NCBI GenBank assembly: GCA_965223265.1
Contig: OZ244999.1
Span: 7,840,001 to 7,904,000, forward strand
Source: Planctomycetota bacterium
GTDB lineage: Bacteria > Planctomycetota > UBA8108 > SXIK01
DNA length: 64,000 nucleotides
Reading direction: 5' to 3'
The notes beneath the pieces were generated by a model. That model did no database searches, was not told where the DNA came from, and was given only the letters and a program-made list of their open reading frames with translations. A program made the position numbers and the translations under genes. This document shows positions 1 to 14,374 of this stretch, one piece after another. Position 1 is the first letter of the stretch. Every line of letters begins with the position of its first letter.

Positions 1-1143
1 GTCGGAGCCCTCAATTGCCAGCTCGCCATCGACGAACCGAATTTCTGAACCGTCGATACCGGGGTCGGACACGACCGTATACGTCGCCCGTTGGATGGCG
101 GATCGACCCGCGGGTAAACTGCTCGAGTCACCCATCAAATCAAGCACCTGAGTAACAACGAAACCACCATCGACAATCCGCTCGATGTCGAAAGGCGTTC
201 CTCCCGCGAACGTTTCTGTGGCCGTGTCGGTGATGGTCAAATCATCCTCGGCCAAGCTCAAGACGCGTTGATCGTGGGCAATACCAAAAGCCCACCCTTG
301 TACCGCGATGTCGCCTATGTCCGCATTGACTACGACCGGTACACGCGTTCTACCCAACTCGAAGACCGGGCACTCGAATACGTTCGACCGAGTCGTCTCA
401 ATCGAGTCCGCGACAAAGAATTCGAAGGAGATCGATAGCTCAACTTCGGCGCATGGTTCGGCTTGACTTACAGAGGGACAAAACTCTTCAAGCAGCTCCG
501 GTGGGGAGTCGAACCGCCGTCGTAAGAGTGCGTTTCGAAGCTGGGTTGGCTGGCGTGCCTGGCCGTGAACCTGCAGTTCGATTGGAACGAATGAAGCTCC
601 GTCCGCTGCAAGACCTTCCGAAAAGCGAAGCGAGGTCCCTCCTGTGCCCGCGTCGGCAATCAGACGGTAGCTCACACTGACAAGGGAGTTCCTTCCTGTT
701 GGCAGCGTCGCAAGACCCGACGTATCCAGGCTGACCGCAACAGTGTAGCCGCCTGGAACGATTTGATGCTGTATAAACGGCGCCGCACCGAGGCTTGTCT
801 CAGCGTCAGTTCCGTGCAGAGAAGGCTCGCCGTTAAGACGAAGAAACCGAGCTTCGTGCGCGACCCCAAACGACCATCCAGCGATCGCATTCCTTGGCGT
901 GTCGGCCTGCACCGTTGTGGTAACGAGAGCTTCTGGGGTGAACGAATCGTAAACAAAGAGAGATTCCTCGGCGCGAGTCGGATCAGTGACAACCGAGCTC
1001 GACGCACGGAAAAGGATAGCCAATTCACCTTCGACGCACCGCAAATCGCTCACGCAGAATTCTCGCGTGATCGGGAAGCTCGGACCTGAAAACAGGCTTG
1101 GAAGCCACATAGCCATCAACAGAACAACGCAGAGTAACCGCAC
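1..1143 (-). CDS. Secreted protein with tandem cohesin-like repeats (partial, runs off the left edge; absent from ORF track)
   Basis: Manual translation gives an open frame from GTG at 1143 (AGGAG upstream) to position 1. N-terminus MRLLCVVLLMAMWLPSLFSG looks like a signal peptide. Two similar units 194 aa apart: GWSFGVAHE (856-879) and QGWAFGIAHD (274-300), each followed by a GG(Y/F)xV..LD..LPxGR...Y segment. Confidence 0.8.
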   Translation of the reverse strand, partial: MRLLCVVLLMAMWLPSLFSGPSFPITREFCVSDLRCVEGELAILFRASSSVVTDPTRAEESLFVYDSFTPEALVTTTVQADTPRNAIAGWSFGVAHEARFLRLNGEPSLHGTDAETSLGAAPFIQHQIVPGGYTVAVSLDTSGLATLPTGRNSLVSVSYRLIADAGTGGTSLRFSEGLAADGASFVPIELQVHGQARQPTQLRNALLRRRFDSPPELLEEFCPSVSQAEPCAEVELSISFEFFVADSIETTRSNVFECPVFELGRTRVPVVVNADIGDIAVQGWAFGIAHDQRVLSLAEDDLTITDTATETFAGGTPFDIERIVDGGFVVTQVLDLMGDSSSLPAGRSAIQRATYTVVSDPGIDGSEIRFVDGELAIEGSD

Positions 1144-10697: not shown

Positions 10698-12137
10698 CTA
10701 GAGGCGGTACGCGCTTTTGGCCAAATCGTAGGCCGACGCGCGCATCATTTCCTCGGCGTCCAAAAAGTCGACCATACCTCCTTCGACGAGTCCGGCCAGC
10801 CAATTGGCCTCGACGCGCCGCCACAGATCATGACGAGCCGGAATCGACGGAAACGCGCGAGTGTCGTCATTGAAGCCAGCCGTATTGTAAAGCCCCGCAG
10901 TCTCGACGACACTGTCGCGATACCGCCTCATGCCTTGCACGCTATCGTAGAACCACCATGGCGGTCCGAGCTTGACGGCCGGGTAGTGACCAGCCAGCGG
11001 CGCGAGCTCGCGAGAATACGTGGTTTCGTCGAGCGTGAACAAAATGATCGTCAGGCCCGGTTCGTTGCCGAAGCGATTCAGGAGCGGTCTGAGATTGTTG
11101 GTGAAGTCCGTCGCAATCGGAATATCGCAGCCCTTGTCGGCGCCGAACTCGGCAAAGACTCGCTCGTTGTGATTACGCAGCGAGCCGCAGTGGAGCTGCA
11201 TGACGAGCCCGTCTTCGCAGCTCATGCGAGCCATTTCGATCAACATGTGACCAGTGAATCTCTTGGCGTCATCATCGCTTGCCTTACCGTCAAGAGCTCG
11301 CTGGAAAATCGACTGGGCATCGTGTTCTGAGAGCGTCTCGGTATAAGGCGTAAGTGCGGCGTGATCGGTGGCCGTAGCGCCGAGTTCCTTGAAGTATTGA
11401 CGCCGATTCTCCAGAGCGGAGACGAGTCGTTTGTAGCTGTTGACGTTGATGCCGGTGACGGCGCTCAGCGCTTCGAGGTTCTGCTTCCAGCCCGGCGCGT
11501 CGAGGTTGATCACGGCGTCGGGGCGAAACGTCGGCAGTACACGACCGTTCCAACCGGATTCGCGAATCGCCCTATGCGCATCGAGCGGGTCCGTCGCCGC
11601 GTCGGTCGTGCACAGCACCTCGATATTGAATTTCTCGAAAAGCCGCCTTGGCCTGAACTCCGGCGATGCCAGCTTCGCCTCGATGGCTTCGTAGATTTCA
11701 TCGGCGCTGTCGCGGTTCAGTTTGACGTCGATGCCAAAGACGTCGAGCAGCTCATGCGTCAGCCACATACCTGTCGGCGTGCCGCGAAAAAGATAGAAGT
11801 GCTCCGCGAACACACGCCAAATTTTGCGGTGATCCGTCTCTACGGATTCACCATCGTTTCGCGGCACCCCGAGATCTTCGAGGCGGACCCCGTGCGAATA
11901 AAGCATACGAAACACGTAGTGATCCGGGATCAGCAACAGGTCCGCAGGCGAACCAAACGAATAGTCCTCATCCGCGAACATGCGTGGATCGACGTGGCCG
12001 TGTGGACAGACCAGAGGCAGCTCCTTCACGGTGTCGTAGAGCCGCCGGGCTGTCTCTTTCTGCTTCGGATCAAGGCCGAAGTATCGGTCCTCTAGCAGTG
12101 TGATTCTCTGCTTGCTGGGCACGGGCGGTTCCTTCAC
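10698..12137 (-). CDS. uxaC: Glucuronate (uronate) isomerase
   Basis: CPHGHVDP, PDHYVFRMLYSHG, CTTD, LGPPWWFYDS and GFNDDTRAFPSIPARHD motifs. Confidence 0.95.
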   Translation of the reverse strand: MKEPPVPSKQRITLLEDRYFGLDPKQKETARRLYDTVKELPLVCPHGHVDPRMFADEDYSFGSPADLLLIPDHYVFRMLYSHGVRLEDLGVPRNDGESVETDHRKIWRVFAEHFYLFRGTPTGMWLTHELLDVFGIDVKLNRDSADEIYEAIEAKLASPEFRPRRLFEKFNIEVLCTTDAATDPLDAHRAIRESGWNGRVLPTFRPDAVINLDAPGWKQNLEALSAVTGINVNSYKRLVSALENRRQYFKELGATATDHAALTPYTETLSEHDAQSIFQRALDGKASDDDAKRFTGHMLIEMARMSCEDGLVMQLHCGSLRNHNERVFAEFGADKGCDIPIATDFTNNLRPLLNRFGNEPGLTIILFTLDETTYSRELAPLAGHYPAVKLGPPWWFYDSVQGMRRYRDSVVETAGLYNTAGFNDDTRAFPSIPARHDLWRRVEANWLAGLVEGGMVDFLDAEEMMRASAYDLAKSAYRL

Positions 12138-12227
12138 GCAGCTGATGAAAACGAACCGGAGGGCGGATCGAACAGCCCTCCGGTTGGCGAAGTGTCTCGC
12201 GCTCGTTCGCGCCCGGCGCGGCGACGA

Positions 12228-12791
12228 TCAGAGATTGAGTTTGCCAGCGAAGGACTTCTCCGCTGCCGCAAGGATCTGCTTCACTCCGTCCGCCGAAATC
12301 GCCTTTGAAAACGCAAAGTTCTTTTCGACTCTCTTCTTCGAGTAGAGAAGTACCGTATGTCGTGCGTCTTTGTTGAGCTTGTACTTCTTCGAACCGTTCA
12401 AGTTGAGCGTCATTGCAAGGCGCTTCAGCTTGTTTTTCGCCGCAAACTTCTTCAGGTCCGCCTTAGCGTTCTTGTCGTCACTGACGTACACCACGACCCC
12501 GACAGCCTTCGCGGCCCCGGGAGCCTTCGAGTTTGCGAGTAGAAGTTTTTCGATTCCCTTGGCCAGACCGGCCAAGTCGTCGTCGAGCTGACGTGCGAAG
12601 ATCAGCGCGACGGGTACATTGCCGCTCACTCATATGTAGCAAACTTTGGCACGCGACTTGAATTTCCCTGTGATATCGACGACGTCGAAAGCTGGCGTCG
12701 CCGCACCGGGTTGAAGTCCTGACTTCACCTGATCGCCCGCCATGAGCGGCAGGGCAATGAAGGTGAGCGCGATCATCGACGCGGTTCTCAT
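12228..12791 (-). CDS. Secreted thioredoxin-like protein with in-frame UGA (CYI-U); probable selenoprotein, 187 aa
   Basis: ORFs 12630-12848 and 12228-12629 are in the same frame and separated only by TGA at 12630-12632. ATG at 12791 has a GAAGGAG RBS and a signal peptide. Joined sequence reads KSGLQPG..PAFDVVDITG..KVCYI*VSGNVPVALIFAR. Confidence 0.8.
12604..12629 (-). promoter_or_regulatory. Candidate bacterial SECIS hairpin
   Basis: Directly after the UGA: GUGA-GCGGC-AAUGUACCC-GUCGC-GCU, a 5-bp stem with a GU-containing loop, extendable toward the UGA. The loop sits closer to the UGA than in canonical models. Confidence 0.4.
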
Positions 12792-13078
12792 GTCGACTCC
12801 TTCACGAAAAAAACTTCGAAACAAAACCTCGTCACGCCTCAAATTCACTTACAAGCGAGCGGAAATCATCCGGACTCGATCAGCCATCCGAACTCCGCGC
12901 GCAGAATTTCAGCACAACTACGATTTTAACCCGCAGCTTTCGTGAGTTTCTACCGCAACGCGGAAATCGAGGTCGAATCATCTCGGCCTTTACCGGCGAC
13001 TCGCCGGACATGAAGCACGTTTCGCCCGCGTGGCTACCGCGGTCAAAACCAACACGCAACCCGGGCGCCGCGGGCAGC

Positions 13079-14374
13079 TCAGTGCGGCGGACTATCGTCT
13101 TCGAGCGGATCGGCAGGCTCGCGACGGATGTGCGCGCCGAGCGCGCTGAGACGCGCCTCGATGTGTTCGTAGCCCCGATCGAGGTGATAAATCCTGTGCA
13201 CCTCCGTAATCCCAACCCCGACCAAACCGGCAAGCAAAAGCGATGCACTCGCACGCAGGTCCGACGCCATGACCGGGGCGCCACTGAGCGCCGCAACGCC
13301 ACTAATGATTGCGCTCGGGCCTTCCTTGCGAATGTTGGCGCCCATGCGCGCGAGCTCGGAGATGTGGATGAAGCGGTCCGGGTACACCTTCTCGGTGACC
13401 AAGCTAATCCCGTCGGCGAGACAAAGAAGCGCCATGATCTGCGCCTGGAGATCGGTCGGGAAGCCCGGGTACGGAAGCGTCGTCACATCGACCGAGCGAA
13501 AGCCGCCGTTGGAGCGTACGCGGATCGCATCTCCTTCGGCGGTGACGTGCAGCCCAATCTGCCGCAAAAGGTGGGTGAGCGCGGCCATGTGATCGGGTCG
13601 GCATTTGCGCACGATGACATCGCCGCGCGTAATCGCCCCGGCGATCAAAAGTGTTCCCGCCTCGATGCGGTCCGGGATCACCGAATAGTCGGCGCCTCCT
13701 AGCTCTGGCACACCATGCACCACGAGCCGCGGCGTCCCGATGCCCTCGATGCGCGCTCCCATGGCGGTCAAAAAGTTCGCCAAGTCAGCGATCTCTGGTT
13801 CGCACGCCGCCGATTCGATCACCGTTGTCCCGTGAGCCAGAACCGCCGCCATGAGAACGTTGGCCGTACCCAGTACCGTCGACCCGAACGGTCCTCCAAG
13901 AAAGACCGTCGTGCCGCGCAGCTCGTCGGCGGACGCTTCGACGTAGCCGTGTCGAATACGGATCTCCGCGCCCATGGCGGCCAGTCCCTTGAGATGCAAG
14001 TCGATCGGCCGGACGCCGAAGACGCAGCCTCCGGGCAGCGACACCTTAGCGCGCTTGCGCCGCGCTACGAGCGGACCGAGCGCGCAAACCGACGCGCGCA
14101 TCCGACGTACGTGCTCGTAGGGCGCGGTGTAGGGATCCGATGATTCCGCTTGCACGTGGATCGCCCCATCGTCGCGCCGCTCGCACTCGACACCGAGCTC
14201 ACGCAGGATCTCCATCGCGCTGCACACGTCTTTGAGGTCCGGCACGTTGCGAATCACGCACGTCTCGTCGGTGAGCAGCGACGCGAACAGGATGGGAAGC
14301 GCCGCGTTCTTGGCGCCACGCACCTCGACCGTACCCTCGAGCGGAATGCCGCCCTCGATGAGGAGCTTATCCAT
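13079..14374 (-). CDS. murA: UDP-N-acetylglucosamine 1-carboxyvinyltransferase
   Basis: GAKNAALP, MRAS, LPGGCVFGVRPIDLH (catalytic Cys), PGFPTDLQ, DLRA and HLDRGYE motifs. Confidence 0.97.
   Translation of the reverse strand: MDKLLIEGGIPLEGTVEVRGAKNAALPILFASLLTDETCVIRNVPDLKDVCSAMEILRELGVECERRDDGAIHVQAESSDPYTAPYEHVRRMRASVCALGPLVARRKRAKVSLPGGCVFGVRPIDLHLKGLAAMGAEIRIRHGYVEASADELRGTTVFLGGPFGSTVLGTANVLMAAVLAHGTTVIESAACEPEIADLANFLTAMGARIEGIGTPRLVVHGVPELGGADYSVIPDRIEAGTLLIAGAITRGDVIVRKCRPDHMAALTHLLRQIGLHVTAEGDAIRVRSNGGFRSVDVTTLPYPGFPTDLQAQIMALLCLADGISLVTEKVYPDRFIHISELARMGANIRKEGPSAIISGVAALSGAPVMASDLRASASLLLAGLVGVGITEVHRIYHLDRGYEHIEARLSALGAHIRREPADPLEDDSPPH

What the first reader, a model, noticed from the sequence alone, without database searches (positions are those of the whole stretch)
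12228..12791. Hidden selenoprotein: secreted thioredoxin-like protein with a C-Y-I-UGA (CxxU) motif
Seen: the ORF track splits this into two ORFs, but they abut in the same frame with a single TGA (12630-12632) exactly three codons after a Cys. The upstream part has the RBS and signal peptide; the downstream part has no obvious RBS of its own. A hairpin follows the UGA. Established: CxxU is a typical selenocysteine redox motif, and bacterial SECIS elements lie just 3' of the UGA. From recollection, not a search: planctomycete hypothetical proteins of the pattern KSG.Q.G...F....TG....C..C..G..PV..IFAR carry CxxC here. Inference: this is a 187-aa exported selenoprotein (Sec54) of a family I cannot assign to a named selenoprotein class, implying Sec-based periplasmic redox chemistry that standard annotation would miss.
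Basis: partly seen in the sequence, partly recalled or inferred. Interest (0 to 1): 0.88.

Follow-up and report, generated by a model that had tools for sequence, protein, structure and literature searches.

The report
Hidden exported selenoprotein, new family
Two small open reading frames that annotation would call separately are one gene for an exported, peroxiredoxin-shaped protein that carries selenocysteine, and it belongs to a large planctomycete protein family that no database has named.

Summary
On the minus strand, ATG 12791 to stop 12228-12230 encodes 187 residues, with one in-frame TGA (12630-12632) at codon 54 in the motif C51-Y-I-U54.

The TGA is very likely decoded as selenocysteine:
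- 18 homologous genes from 14 genomes have TGA at this column (CY[IV]U). 14 others have TGC (CYRC). The proteins are conserved on both sides of the codon.
- The Sec forms make one old clade.
- The genome has selA, selB, a fused selD and tRNA-Sec(TCA).
- selA was found in 16 of 16 other genomes with a TGA form, but in only 3 of 21 genomes with Cys forms only.
- Sec forms fold a stronger hairpin after the codon than Cys forms.

The AlphaFold model (pLDDT 88.8) has the peroxiredoxin/TlpA/ResA thioredoxin-like fold (Z 16.7). However, the CxxU sits in the turn before the central strand, not at the canonical active site, which reads R-x-x-D here.

No Pfam, NCBIfam or PDB sequence match exists. Every name that the sources give to the listed relatives is "hypothetical" or "uncharacterized". 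The family was not found in the selenoprotein literature searched.

Verdict: a real, unannotated, probably periplasmic redox selenoprotein of an undescribed family. Its substrate is unknown.

The parts
12228..12791 (-). Whole coding sequence: 187 codons plus the stop TGA (12228-12230), read through one in-frame UGA
   Evidence: Translation with TGA=U. Aligns end to end with 28 homologues.
12797..12803 (-). Shine-Dalgarno-like GAAGGAG, 5 nt before the ATG at 12791
   Evidence: Read from the sequence.
12923..12952 (-). Sigma-70-like promoter match (TAGAAA, 18 nt, TAAAAT; 9 of 12)
   Evidence: Consensus scan: 1 site found against 0.2 expected. Function not shown.
12738..12791 (-). Probable signal peptide, residues 1-18 (MRTASMIALTFIALPLMA, then GD)
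   Evidence: Read from the sequence. All 29 aligned members have a basic, then hydrophobic, poorly conserved N-terminus. Model pLDDT is 49-54 over residues 1-20. No signal-peptide predictor was available.
12630..12641 (-). C51-Y52-I53-U54 motif. The UGA (Sec54) is at 12630-12632.
   Evidence: C51, Y52 and the U/C column are invariant in 29 of 29 aligned members.
12581..12612 (-). SECIS-like hairpin: 11 pairs with one 1x1 mismatch and the 8-nt loop CUUCGCAC lying over the codons for I64-F65-A66-R67. The stem starts 17 nt after the UGA.
   Evidence: Folds. All 18 Sec forms fold a hairpin whose apex lies over the same codons. Sec forms have mean z -2.06 against -0.67 for Cys forms. No common register was found.
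12231..12734 (-). Mature domain, residues 20-187, with a peroxiredoxin/TlpA-like thioredoxin fold
   Evidence: AlphaFold2 model with pLDDT 88.8 and pTM 0.84. VIA-align Z 16.7, rmsd 2.1 A over 144 residues to Bcp4; similar scores to FetE, DsbE, Tpx and ResA.
12154..12185 (-). Terminator-like hairpin rich in G+C pairs, followed by UCGUUUUC, about 45 nt after the stop and before uxaC
   Evidence: Fold. The consensus scan did not list it.

Best explanation
This is one gene for a 187-residue selenoprotein. Ribosomes reaching UGA54 insert selenocysteine, using the genome's SelA/SelB/SelD/tRNA-Sec system. A hairpin about 17-50 nt downstream, inside the coding region, probably helps. The product carries an N-terminal signal peptide, so it most likely acts outside the cytoplasm. 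The mature domain has the peroxiredoxin/TlpA/ResA type of thioredoxin-like fold. Its only conserved redox pair, C51-x-x-U54, begins a short helix in the turn between the N-terminal beta-hairpin and the central strand. The canonical CxxC/peroxidatic-Cys position reads R67-x-x-D70 in this protein. The most likely chemistry is reversible selenenylsulfide formation between C51 and U54, as in a thiol-disulfide oxidoreductase or peroxide/disulfide reductase. The substrate is unknown. Shown here: the reading frame, the Sec/Cys column, conservation, the Sec machinery and the fold. Inferred: actual Sec insertion, export, redox function, and the role of the hairpin.
For: 1. Sec/Cys column. I extracted 32 homologous genes from 30 loci. 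18 have TGA (10 CYVU, 8 CYIU) and 14 have TGC (CYRC) at the same column. In the 29-row alignment, G29, T41, G42, C51 and Y52 are invariant upstream of the codon, and F65, A117 and T128 downstream. Identity to the window protein is 28-40%.
2. Wider family. A profile search finds 2,665 cluster representatives at E<=0.001. Of the 143 best that are no longer than 300 aa, 130 have Cys at both motif columns. Six or seven are 121-130-aa fragments that begin just after the column, as miscalled Sec forms would.
3. Sec machinery in this genome. selA scores 548 bits (cut-off 268), selB 324 bits plus its C-terminal piece (cut-off 242), selD 309 bits (cut-off 125), and tRNA-Sec 70 bits with anticodon TCA.
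4. Co-occurrence. selA was found in 16 of 16 other genomes that carry a TGA form: 15 over the cut-off, and one partial match in a 75%-complete genome. Among 21 genomes with Cys forms only, 18 have no match although all are at least 99% complete. The other three score 485, 274 and 155 bits.
5. Phylogeny. The Sec forms form one side of a branch (SH-aLRT 90) and the CYRC forms another (98). One change of state suffices. The Sec clade spans five taxonomic families.
6. Hairpins. Over the 66 nt from the codon, Sec forms (n=18) have mean MFE -29.5 and z -2.06. Cys forms (n=14) have -17.4 and -0.67. Mann-Whitney on z gives p=0.0037, but the rows are related.
7. Other Sec genes. The genome holds further genes with a domain running across an in-frame TGA: GPx, two TlpA/redoxin-like proteins, a Prx-like protein, SCO1, and FmdB at 497 bits.
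8. Fold.
9. Sequence check. Contigs assembled independently from 3 runs (2 samples, 1 study) are identical over 12100-13000, TGA included.
Against: - No experiment shows selenium in this protein.
- The window's own hairpin is unremarkable (z about -1.4 to -1.5).
- A control TGA that really ends ptsH has a stronger hairpin (z -2.24). The other putative Sec genes of this genome have z between -0.8 and +0.9.
- No single hairpin register is shared by the 18 Sec forms: 57% and 49% of cells are paired, covariation is not above the slid controls, and RNAalifold finds no consensus.
- Sec forms are also richer in G+C in this stretch (0.65 against 0.55), which inflates the raw energy difference.
- The redox pair is not at the site where this fold normally does chemistry, so assigning function by analogy is weaker than usual.
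- Six of the 136 representatives that cover the column lack Cys there: C..W twice, and G..W, S..V, C..S and C..E once each.
- The runs may be the assembly's own source, and their word depth is only 3.5-4.5.
- The genomes compared are relatives, so the tests overstate independence.
Confidence: 0.88

Rival explanations
1. It is a real selenoprotein, but the C51/U54 pair binds a metal or metalloid (for example Cu, Hg or Zn) or carries sulfur or selenium, rather than cycling as a selenenylsulfide oxidoreductase.
For: The pair is not at the canonical catalytic site of the fold. The same genome has a SCO1-type protein, from a copper-handling family, with C-x-x-x-U. R67, T128 and T146 are invariant or nearly so. 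By their place in the order of secondary-structure elements I infer that they lie around the canonical pocket, which may therefore have a separate role.
Against: C-x-x-C/U starting a helix is the classic redox-pair geometry. No His, Met or further Cys is conserved near the motif. No metal-handling gene is a conserved neighbour.
Confidence: 0.15
2. The TGA is a true stop. The locus is then two unrelated small ORFs, or a gene killed by a nonsense mutation.
For: Table 11 splits the frame, and a GTG follows the TGA directly. The gene's own terminator codon is also TGA.
Against: The TGA sits at the same column in 18 genes that are only 28-40% identical to the window protein, with protein conservation on both sides and Cys in all close paralogues. 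No RBS precedes the GTG. The downstream piece alone would lack the signal peptide and the family's hallmark motif.
Confidence: 0.03
3. UGA54 is read through by a near-cognate tRNA (Trp or Cys) rather than by Sec-tRNA.
For: Three database representatives have W at the column: CYVW, CYRW and GHYW.
Against: Those W residues may come from gene callers that read TGA as Trp; no DNA was available to check this. selA co-occurs with TGA forms in 16 of 16 genomes. The column is Cys, not Trp, in 130 of 136 covering representatives.
Confidence: 0.03
4. The TGA is a sequencing or assembly error for TGC or TGT.
For: This is one assembly of moderate completeness (91.65%).
Against: Three run assemblies show the same letters with 0 differences. 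17 further homologous genes from 13 other genomes have TGA at the same place.
Confidence: 0.01

Closest known systems
Peroxiredoxin / TlpA / ResA / DsbE / Tpx thioredoxin-like proteins (Pfam AhpC-TSA PF00578, Redoxin PF08534)
   Same: Same fold and size. Z is 15-16.7 with rmsd 2.1-2.5 A over 134-144 residues. The N-terminal 'G..xPxFxVxDxxG' hairpin aligns with an AhpC/TSA protein. Many members of these families are exported.
   Different: None of the 29 members matches either HMM at E<=1. The canonical active-site position carries R-x-x-D instead of CxxC or PxxxTxxC. The conserved pair lies one element earlier, in the turn before the central strand.
Known Trx-fold bacterial selenoproteins (Prx-like thiol:disulfide oxidoreductase UxxC, UGC-containing TlpA family, Redoxin UxxC, Prx TxxU), as tabulated in the 2026 review PMC13188914
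   Same: Sec replaces a redox Cys in an exported thioredoxin-like protein. Cys homologues are abundant. The SECIS-like hairpin lies in the coding region.
   Different: In those families the Sec is the N-terminal residue of the canonical motif (UxxC or TxxU). Here Sec is the C-terminal residue (CxxU) at a non-canonical site. No NCBIfam model matches at E<=1. I read passages of the review's table, not the whole text.
SelW/SelT/SelH (Rdx, PF10262) CxxU selenoproteins
   Same: CxxU with Sec in the second position, in a thioredoxin-like fold.
   Different: No PF10262 match. I recall that Rdx proteins are small, mostly cytosolic, and carry CxxU between beta1 and alpha1, the canonical site. That recollection was not tested here.
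YtfJ_HI0045 (PF09695), periplasmic thioredoxin-like proteins of unknown function
   Same: Similar length (about 180 aa), a signal peptide, and no canonical CxxC. This is the nearest Pfam-bearing cluster in the ESM Atlas feature search (scores 0.86 and 0.85). hhalign gives a co-linear end-to-end alignment with E. coli YtfJ.
   Different: The hhalign probability is only 3.4%. PF09695 matched no family member at E<=1. It was over its cut-off in 0 of 401 phylum genomes and gave no match in this genome. YtfJ has S-Y-K-T where this family has C-Y-x-C/U. This is a lead only.
Iodothyronine deiodinase-like proteins
   Same: A selenoprotein with a Prx-like fold. Foldseek ranks it 11th (TMq 0.62). Five of 29 members touch NCBIfam 'deiodinase_rel' weakly (best E 0.064).
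   Different: The scores are far below the cut-off. The review lists deiodinase-like proteins with the motif UxxC. That Sec sits at the canonical site in deiodinases is my recollection.

Membership tests
Bacterial Sec-decoded (selenoprotein) gene | In-frame UGA that aligns with Cys in homologues, with protein similarity on both sides | tested here: met
   18 TGA forms and 14 TGC forms at one column. Invariant residues lie on both sides. 130 of 136 covering representatives have Cys there.
Bacterial Sec-decoded (selenoprotein) gene | Complete Sec machinery in the genome (selA, selB, selD, tRNA-Sec with anticodon UCA) | tested here: met
   All four score over their curated cut-offs. ARAGORN calls tRNA-SeC with anticodon tca. 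SelD is the known fusion with an N-terminal oxidoreductase.
Bacterial Sec-decoded (selenoprotein) gene | SECIS stem-loop shortly 3' of the UGA | tested here: inconclusive
   Every Sec form has a hairpin, and they are stronger than in Cys forms. The window's own z is only -1.4 to -1.5. No register is shared and covariation is not above the controls. Rfam gave no relevant match.
Bacterial Sec-decoded (selenoprotein) gene | Selenium actually incorporated at the UGA | not testable with these tools
   Needs 75Se labelling or mass spectrometry.
Thioredoxin-like fold, peroxiredoxin/TlpA type | Three-dimensional fold: N-terminal hairpin plus a beta-alpha-beta-alpha-beta ... beta-beta-alpha core | tested here: met
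   Model pLDDT 88.8. Z 16.7, rmsd 2.1 A over 144 residues to 3hjp. 815 of 1000 chains score Z>=8, and the 50 rows shown are all Prx, Tpx, ResA, DsbE or other thioredoxin-like entries.
Thioredoxin-like fold, peroxiredoxin/TlpA type | Redox motif (CxxC, or the peroxidatic Cys in PxxxTxxC) at the end of the central strand, at the N-terminus of the long helix | tested here: not met
   The central strand is residues 61-66 and the long helix 71-89. The residues between them read A-R-Q-L-D. ResA Cys74/Cys77 (numbers taken from the entry titles) map to model residue 62 or later, given the aligned ranges 30..185 and 39..175 with 134 of 137 chain residues aligned. C51/U54 lie before the strand.
Pfam AhpC-TSA (PF00578) / Redoxin (PF08534) | Match to the family HMM | tested here: not met
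   Neither family appears at E<=1 for any of the 29 members.
Curated selenoprotein families of NCBIfam release 20 (those listed with NF or TIGR accessions in PMC13188914) | Match to any such model | tested here: not met
   No selenoprotein model matches at E<=1 in any of the 29 members. The commonest hit, deiodinase_rel, matches 5 members at E>=0.064, far below its cut-off.
YtfJ_HI0045 (PF09695) | HMM match or significant profile similarity | tested here: inconclusive
   No HMM match. hhalign probability 3.4% and E 0.013 against a single sequence. Atlas feature score 0.86.
Exported (Sec-pathway signal peptide) protein | N-terminal basic, hydrophobic and small-residue cleavage pattern | tested here: inconclusive
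   The pattern is visible in all 29 aligned members, and some have a lipobox-like L-A-A-C. No predictor or experiment was available.

The most novel reading that the evidence does not exclude
This is the Sec-bearing branch of an undescribed family, so far seen mainly in Planctomycetota. In this family a peroxiredoxin/TlpA scaffold has abandoned its canonical active site and evolved a new C-Y-x-C/U redox centre in the turn before the central strand. The old pocket keeps R67, T128 and T146, invariant or nearly so, possibly for substrate binding. That would be a new catalytic architecture for the thioredoxin superfamily and a new class of periplasmic selenoenzyme.
Probability: 0.4. Interest if true: 0.7.

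Novelty: new variant of a known kind. Interest (0 to 1): 0.58.

Why it matters
- Standard annotation misses this gene. It calls a 133-aa fragment or nothing, and similar C-terminal fragments of relatives already sit in public protein sets.
- The gene adds a selenoprotein family that matches no Pfam or NCBIfam model and was not found in the parts of the 2026 review's catalogue of prokaryotic selenoproteins that I read.
- It shows that this planctomycete lineage places selenocysteine in several proteins with signal-peptide-like N-termini: GPx, TlpA-like, redoxin-like, Prx-like and SCO1-like proteins, and this one.
- The redox pair lies away from the canonical site of a very well studied fold. 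That makes the family a clean test case for how active sites move within a scaffold.
- Sec clades (x = I or V) and Cys clades (x = R) can be compared directly, to ask what selenium buys.

Tried and rejected
- RNAalifold on the 18 post-UGA stretches gave no consensus structure.
- Two hand-written registers gave 57% and 49% paired cells, with covariation not above the slid controls. A shared SECIS register is therefore not shown.
- Rfam at E<=10 returned only chance-level hits: mir-22, a CRISPR repeat and RAGATH-28.
- The PDB sequence search with the family profile had a best E of 0.36.
- hhalign against a neighbouring AhpC/TSA protein aligned only 23 N-terminal columns, at probability 14%.
- Gene neighbourhood: I scanned 69 flanking ORFs from 29 loci, out of 76 ORFs from 30 loci; the 7 ORFs of the near-duplicate loci L035, L044 and L050 were left out. 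No universal partner emerged. A roughly 450-aa YncE/lactonase-like beta-propeller follows the gene in 4 of the 29 loci: one Sec form and three Cys forms, with the propellers 45-48% identical between the two groups. This genome has only weak domain-level matches to it, inside 2,200-aa open frames.
- The YtfJ lead was not established.
- The ESM Atlas would not take the read-through protein.
- No RNA run is listed among the holders of the stretch, so nothing can be said about expression.
- Earlier findings of this scan: none lie at this place or resemble it in sequence, and three notes elsewhere in the genome are unrelated.
- My genome-wide TGA scan is crude. It dropped two good candidates at the stricter filter and kept many adjacent-gene artefacts such as ptsH-ptsI.
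- One locus of the phylum scan (L052) gave no tblastn hit at 1e-3 and was left out of all counts.
- Model coordinates are not returned, so I could not measure the distance from C51/U54 to R67/T128/T146.
Full report
**What is in the sequence.** The feature lies on the minus strand.
- An ATG at 12791 is preceded by GAAGGAG and a 5-nt spacer. The frame runs to a TGA stop at 12230-12228.
- The frame is interrupted once, by TGA at 12632-12630 (codon 54). Read through, it gives 187 residues with C51-Y52-I53-U54.
- Under table 11 the ORF list shows two abutting pieces: a 72-aa ORF (12630..12848) and a 133-aa ORF that starts at the GTG directly after the TGA.
- The first 18 residues (MRTASMIALTFIALPLMA) look like a signal peptide. 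This is read from the sequence; no predictor was available.
- On the same strand, murA lies upstream and uxaC downstream. A promoter-like site (12952-12923) and a terminator-like hairpin rich in G+C pairs followed by UCGUUUUC (12185-12154) suggest a separate transcription unit. Neither site is proven.
- The bare pattern of "TGA joining two open frames near a Cys" is common in this 61% G+C genome. There are 52,351 joined frames; 3,586 pass a codon-usage score, and 516 of those have a Cys within four residues. The observation alone proves nothing.

**Comparative evidence for Sec.** A six-frame search with the joined protein found one copy in this genome. It also found relatives in 2 of 3 other genomes of the same taxonomic family, both with one in-frame TGA.
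- In a sample of the phylum, 39 of 401 genomes matched, counting this one. That gave 61 places: 20 with one TGA inside the match and 41 with none.
- From 30 loci I extracted 32 genes. 18 read CY[IV]-TGA (10 CYVU, 8 CYIU) and 14 read CYR-TGC, all at the same column. One locus (L052) gave no tblastn hit and was dropped.
- In an alignment of 29 of these genes, identity to the window protein is 28-40%. Three near-duplicates were left out. Invariant residues lie on both sides of the codon: G29, T41, G42, C51 and Y52 before it, and F65, A117 and T128 after it.
- A maximum-likelihood tree puts the 18 Sec forms on one side of a branch (SH-aLRT 90) and the 14 CYRC forms on another (98). A C-L-x-C subfamily served as outgroup. 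One change of state suffices, and the Sec clade spans five taxonomic families.
- A stop codon held at one column through this much divergence, flanked by conserved protein, is the signature of a decoded UGA. It is not what a pseudogene or two separate genes would show.

**Sec machinery.**
- The genome is one contig of 9.18 Mb, 91.65% complete.
- It has selA (548 bits, cut-off 268), selB (324 bits plus its C-terminal piece, cut-off 242), selD (309 bits, cut-off 125) and a tRNA-Sec (70 bits, cut-off 47) with anticodon TCA.
- SelD is the known fusion with an N-terminal pyridine nucleotide-disulfide oxidoreductase (TIGR03169, 484 bits).
- selA was found in 16 of 16 other genomes that carry a TGA form. 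15 are over the cut-off; the remaining one is a partial 192-bit match in a 75%-complete assembly.
- Of 21 genomes with Cys forms only, 18 had no match at E<=1e-20 although each is at least 99% complete. The other three scored 485, 274 and 155 bits.
- These genomes are relatives: the Sec forms come from five taxonomic families and the Cys-only genomes from two. The association is suggestive, not a clean statistical test.

**The hairpin.** In the window a stem of 11 pairs with one mismatch starts 17 nt after the UGA. Its 8-nt loop lies over the codons for I64-F65-A66-R67.
- On its own it is unremarkable: z -1.48, with 17 of 200 shuffles folding as well.
- All 18 Sec forms fold a hairpin with its apex over the same codons.
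- Over the 66 nt from the codon, Sec forms have mean MFE -29.5 kcal/mol and mean z -2.06. Cys forms have -17.4 and -0.67. Mann-Whitney on z gives p=0.0037.
- Several results count against giving the hairpin much weight:
  - Sec forms are richer in G+C here (0.65 against 0.55).
  - RNAalifold finds no consensus.
  - Two explicit registers pair only 57% and 49% of cells, and covariation is no better than with slid partners.
  - The other putative Sec genes of this genome have z between -0.8 and +0.9.
  - A genuine stop (ptsH) has z -2.24.
- I read the hairpin as a plausible SECIS that has drifted in register between lineages. This is supported only moderately.

**Is the TGA an error?** Contigs assembled independently from three public runs (two samples, one study) cover 12100-13000 with 0 differences. 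They may be the source data, and depth is low. The stronger argument is the 17 further homologous genes, from 13 other genomes, with TGA at the same place.

**What the protein is.**
- No Pfam or NCBIfam family matches the window protein or any of the 29 aligned members at E<=1. The weak exception is 5 of 29 members touching 'deiodinase_rel' at E>=0.064. The family profile finds no PDB sequence (best E 0.36).
- AlphaFold2 with the 29-row alignment gives a confident model (pLDDT 88.8, pTM 0.84).
- Foldseek and VIA-align place the model in the peroxiredoxin/TlpA/ResA/DsbE/Tpx group: Z 16.7 with rmsd 2.1 A over 144 residues to Bcp4, and Z 15.4-15.9 to ResA. 815 of 1000 chains score Z>=8. "Thioredoxin-like" is therefore right as a fold.
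- The redox pair is not where this fold keeps it. The order of elements is: N-terminal hairpin; C51 starting a short helix (52-56); central strand (61-66); long helix (71-89).
- In ResA the CxxC is Cys74/Cys77 (numbers from the entry titles). With model 30..185 aligned to chain 39..175, and 134 of 137 chain residues aligned, Cys74 maps to model residue 62 or later. That is after the central strand, where this protein reads A-R-Q-L-D.
- An AhpC/TSA protein aligns only over the N-terminal "G..xPxFxVxDxxG" hairpin.
- The family has therefore lost the canonical motif and carries C-Y-x-C/U one element earlier. R67, T128 and T146 are invariant or nearly so. By topology I infer that they line the old pocket. 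I could not check this, because coordinates are not returned.

**Size and naming of the family.**
- A word-indexed search returned 331 proteins at E<=0.001. All 120 listed hits have no precomputed Pfam domain, and every name given is "hypothetical" or "uncharacterized". The named sources are Planctomycetaceae and relatives such as Thalassoglobus, Fuerstiella and Caulifigura. All 120 read CYRC.
- An exhaustive profile search of 1.84 billion cluster representatives found 2,665 at E<=0.001 and 1,454 at E<=1e-10.
- Among the 143 best representatives of 300 aa or fewer, 130 have Cys at both motif columns. Six or seven are 121-130-aa fragments that begin just after the column, one of them matching the post-UGA part of a Sec form extracted here. 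Six lack the second Cys: C..W twice, and G..W, S..V, C..S and C..E once each. The W cases may be TGA called as Trp; I had no DNA to check this.
- The ESM Atlas, queried with a natural Cys-form relative, returned only unnamed or automatically named Planctomycetota clusters. The nearest Pfam-bearing clusters were YtfJ_HI0045, at 0.86 and 0.85.
- That lead did not firm up. hhalign with E. coli YtfJ is co-linear but has probability 3.4%. PF09695 gave no match in this genome and was over its cut-off in 0 of 401 phylum genomes.

**Context in the genome.** A crude scan for other coding TGAs, followed by Pfam and NCBIfam searches, found further genes with a domain running across an in-frame TGA:
- a glutathione peroxidase (VASKUGLT);
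- two TlpA/redoxin-like proteins (WATWUGPC and WGYGUGPC);
- a Prx-like protein with HEAT repeats (GDTUPVC);
- a SCO1/SenC protein (CQGTU);
- formylmethanofuran dehydrogenase subunit B (SLUHGP; 497 bits).

At least five of these open frames contain a hydrophobic, signal-peptide-like stretch near the likely start (translations). Using Sec in probably exported thiol enzymes therefore seems to be a habit of this organism, which makes the present gene less surprising and more credible.

**Mechanism.** The most likely reading is as follows.
- SelB with Sec-tRNA decodes UGA54, helped by the downstream hairpin.
- The pre-protein is exported and its signal peptide is cleaved near A18/G19.
- The mature Prx/TlpA-fold domain cycles C51 and U54 between the selenol/thiol state and the selenenylsulfide state. 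It would thereby reduce, or isomerise, a periplasmic disulfide, peroxide or similar oxidant.
- In the sister Cys clade the residue before the second Cys is always Arg. In the Sec clade it is Ile or Val. This fits the idea that Arg lowers a thiol pKa, which a selenol does not need. That is inference only.
- A metal- or sulfur-handling role for the pair is the main live rival.

**Literature.**
- I searched the held library for selenoprotein + Planctomycetes + SECIS + selenoproteome and for selenoprotein + Planctomycetota.
- In the 2026 review of prokaryotic selenoproteomes (PMC13188914) I read passages, including parts of its family table. "Planctomyc" occurs 0 times there. In the parts of the table I read, the listed Trx-fold families have UxxC, UGC or TxxU, apart from a Trx7/PDZ-domain protein and the thiol peroxidase Prx-SUH, which are listed with CxxU. 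Both have NCBIfam models that none of the 29 members matched at E<=1. A TonB receptor with an "FCYXU" motif is listed but is a different protein class.
- The deep-Sep paper (PMC12013277, passages) names nine new families, none of them this one.
- The 2006 comparative paper (PMC1794560, one passage) only notes that few planctomycete genomes existed then.
- A planctomycete genome paper (PMC4807772, passages and Table S9) lists an unnamed "hypothetical" Sec candidate with a Cys homologue in Rhodopirellula. No sequence is given, so I cannot tell whether it is this family.
- Haft & Tolstoy 2025 is not held, and I did not see Deng et al. 2026. Their supplements may bear on the novelty claim.

**Verdict.** This is a real, unannotated selenoprotein gene. 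Its product has a known fold, but its family is undescribed and its redox motif is displaced from the canonical site. It is a new variant of a known kind. That makes it a solid addition to the selenoproteome, but not a new principle.

Noticed in passing
G000:C1:4725851-4726885 (+) = L059, and G000:C1:6360808-6362034 (+) = L062 (outside the window): Two paralogous hypothetical genes carry an in-frame TGA in the motif C-x-G-G/W-G-U-G. Neither matches Pfam or NCBIfam. In a phylum sample, 26 of 301 genomes have relatives, and 33 of 37 matched places carry at least one in-frame TGA. This looks like a second undescribed selenoprotein family, with almost no Cys forms seen.
   Followed up: partly
G000:C1:1240148-1240945 (+) = L060 (outside the window): A SCO1/SenC-domain protein has C-Q-G-T-U, with Sec at the second position of the family's CxxxC copper-binding/redox motif. 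No NCBIfam model matches it.
   Followed up: partly
L053, L054, L055, L056, L057 (same genome, outside the window): Further genes have a domain spanning an in-frame TGA: glutathione peroxidase, two TlpA/redoxin-like proteins (UGPC), a Prx-like protein fused to HEAT repeats (TUPVC), and formylmethanofuran dehydrogenase subunit B (SLUHGP; TIGR03129, 497 bits).
   Followed up: partly
L011:244-2547 (+) = G000:C1:3459482-3461785: SelD is fused to an N-terminal pyridine nucleotide-disulfide oxidoreductase domain (TIGR03169, 484 bits). This is a known architecture.
   Followed up: yes
L024:2058-3515 (+), L034:2151-3512 (+), L040:3-1358 (-), L042:3-1295 (-): A beta-propeller protein of about 450 aa (YncE/lactonase/cytochrome-d1-like) lies directly downstream of the family gene in one Sec-form locus and three Cys-form loci. 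The propellers are 45-48% identical between the two groups. It may be a partner in some lineages. This genome has no orthologue.
   Followed up: partly
L031 (G107) and L047 (G262): Two Sec-form paralogues sit in tandem on the same strand in each of these two genomes. Database representatives with two or three family domains in one protein also exist, for example P0122 (557 aa, three stretches).
   Followed up: no
G000, several places (for example + strand near 7451469, 7190199 and 7738941): A repeated open frame with the context RTHLFGTA-TGA-[SG]NTP[KE][VM]PA occurs at least eight times. It looks like a multicopy mobile-element gene with a TGA-joined frame, not a selenoprotein.
   Followed up: no
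window 10698-12137 (-) and 13079-14374 (-): The flanking genes are glucuronate isomerase (UxaC; 290 bits) and a MurA-type enolpyruvyl transferase (EPSP_synthase family; 323 bits). Neither has an evident functional link to the selenoprotein.
   Followed up: yes
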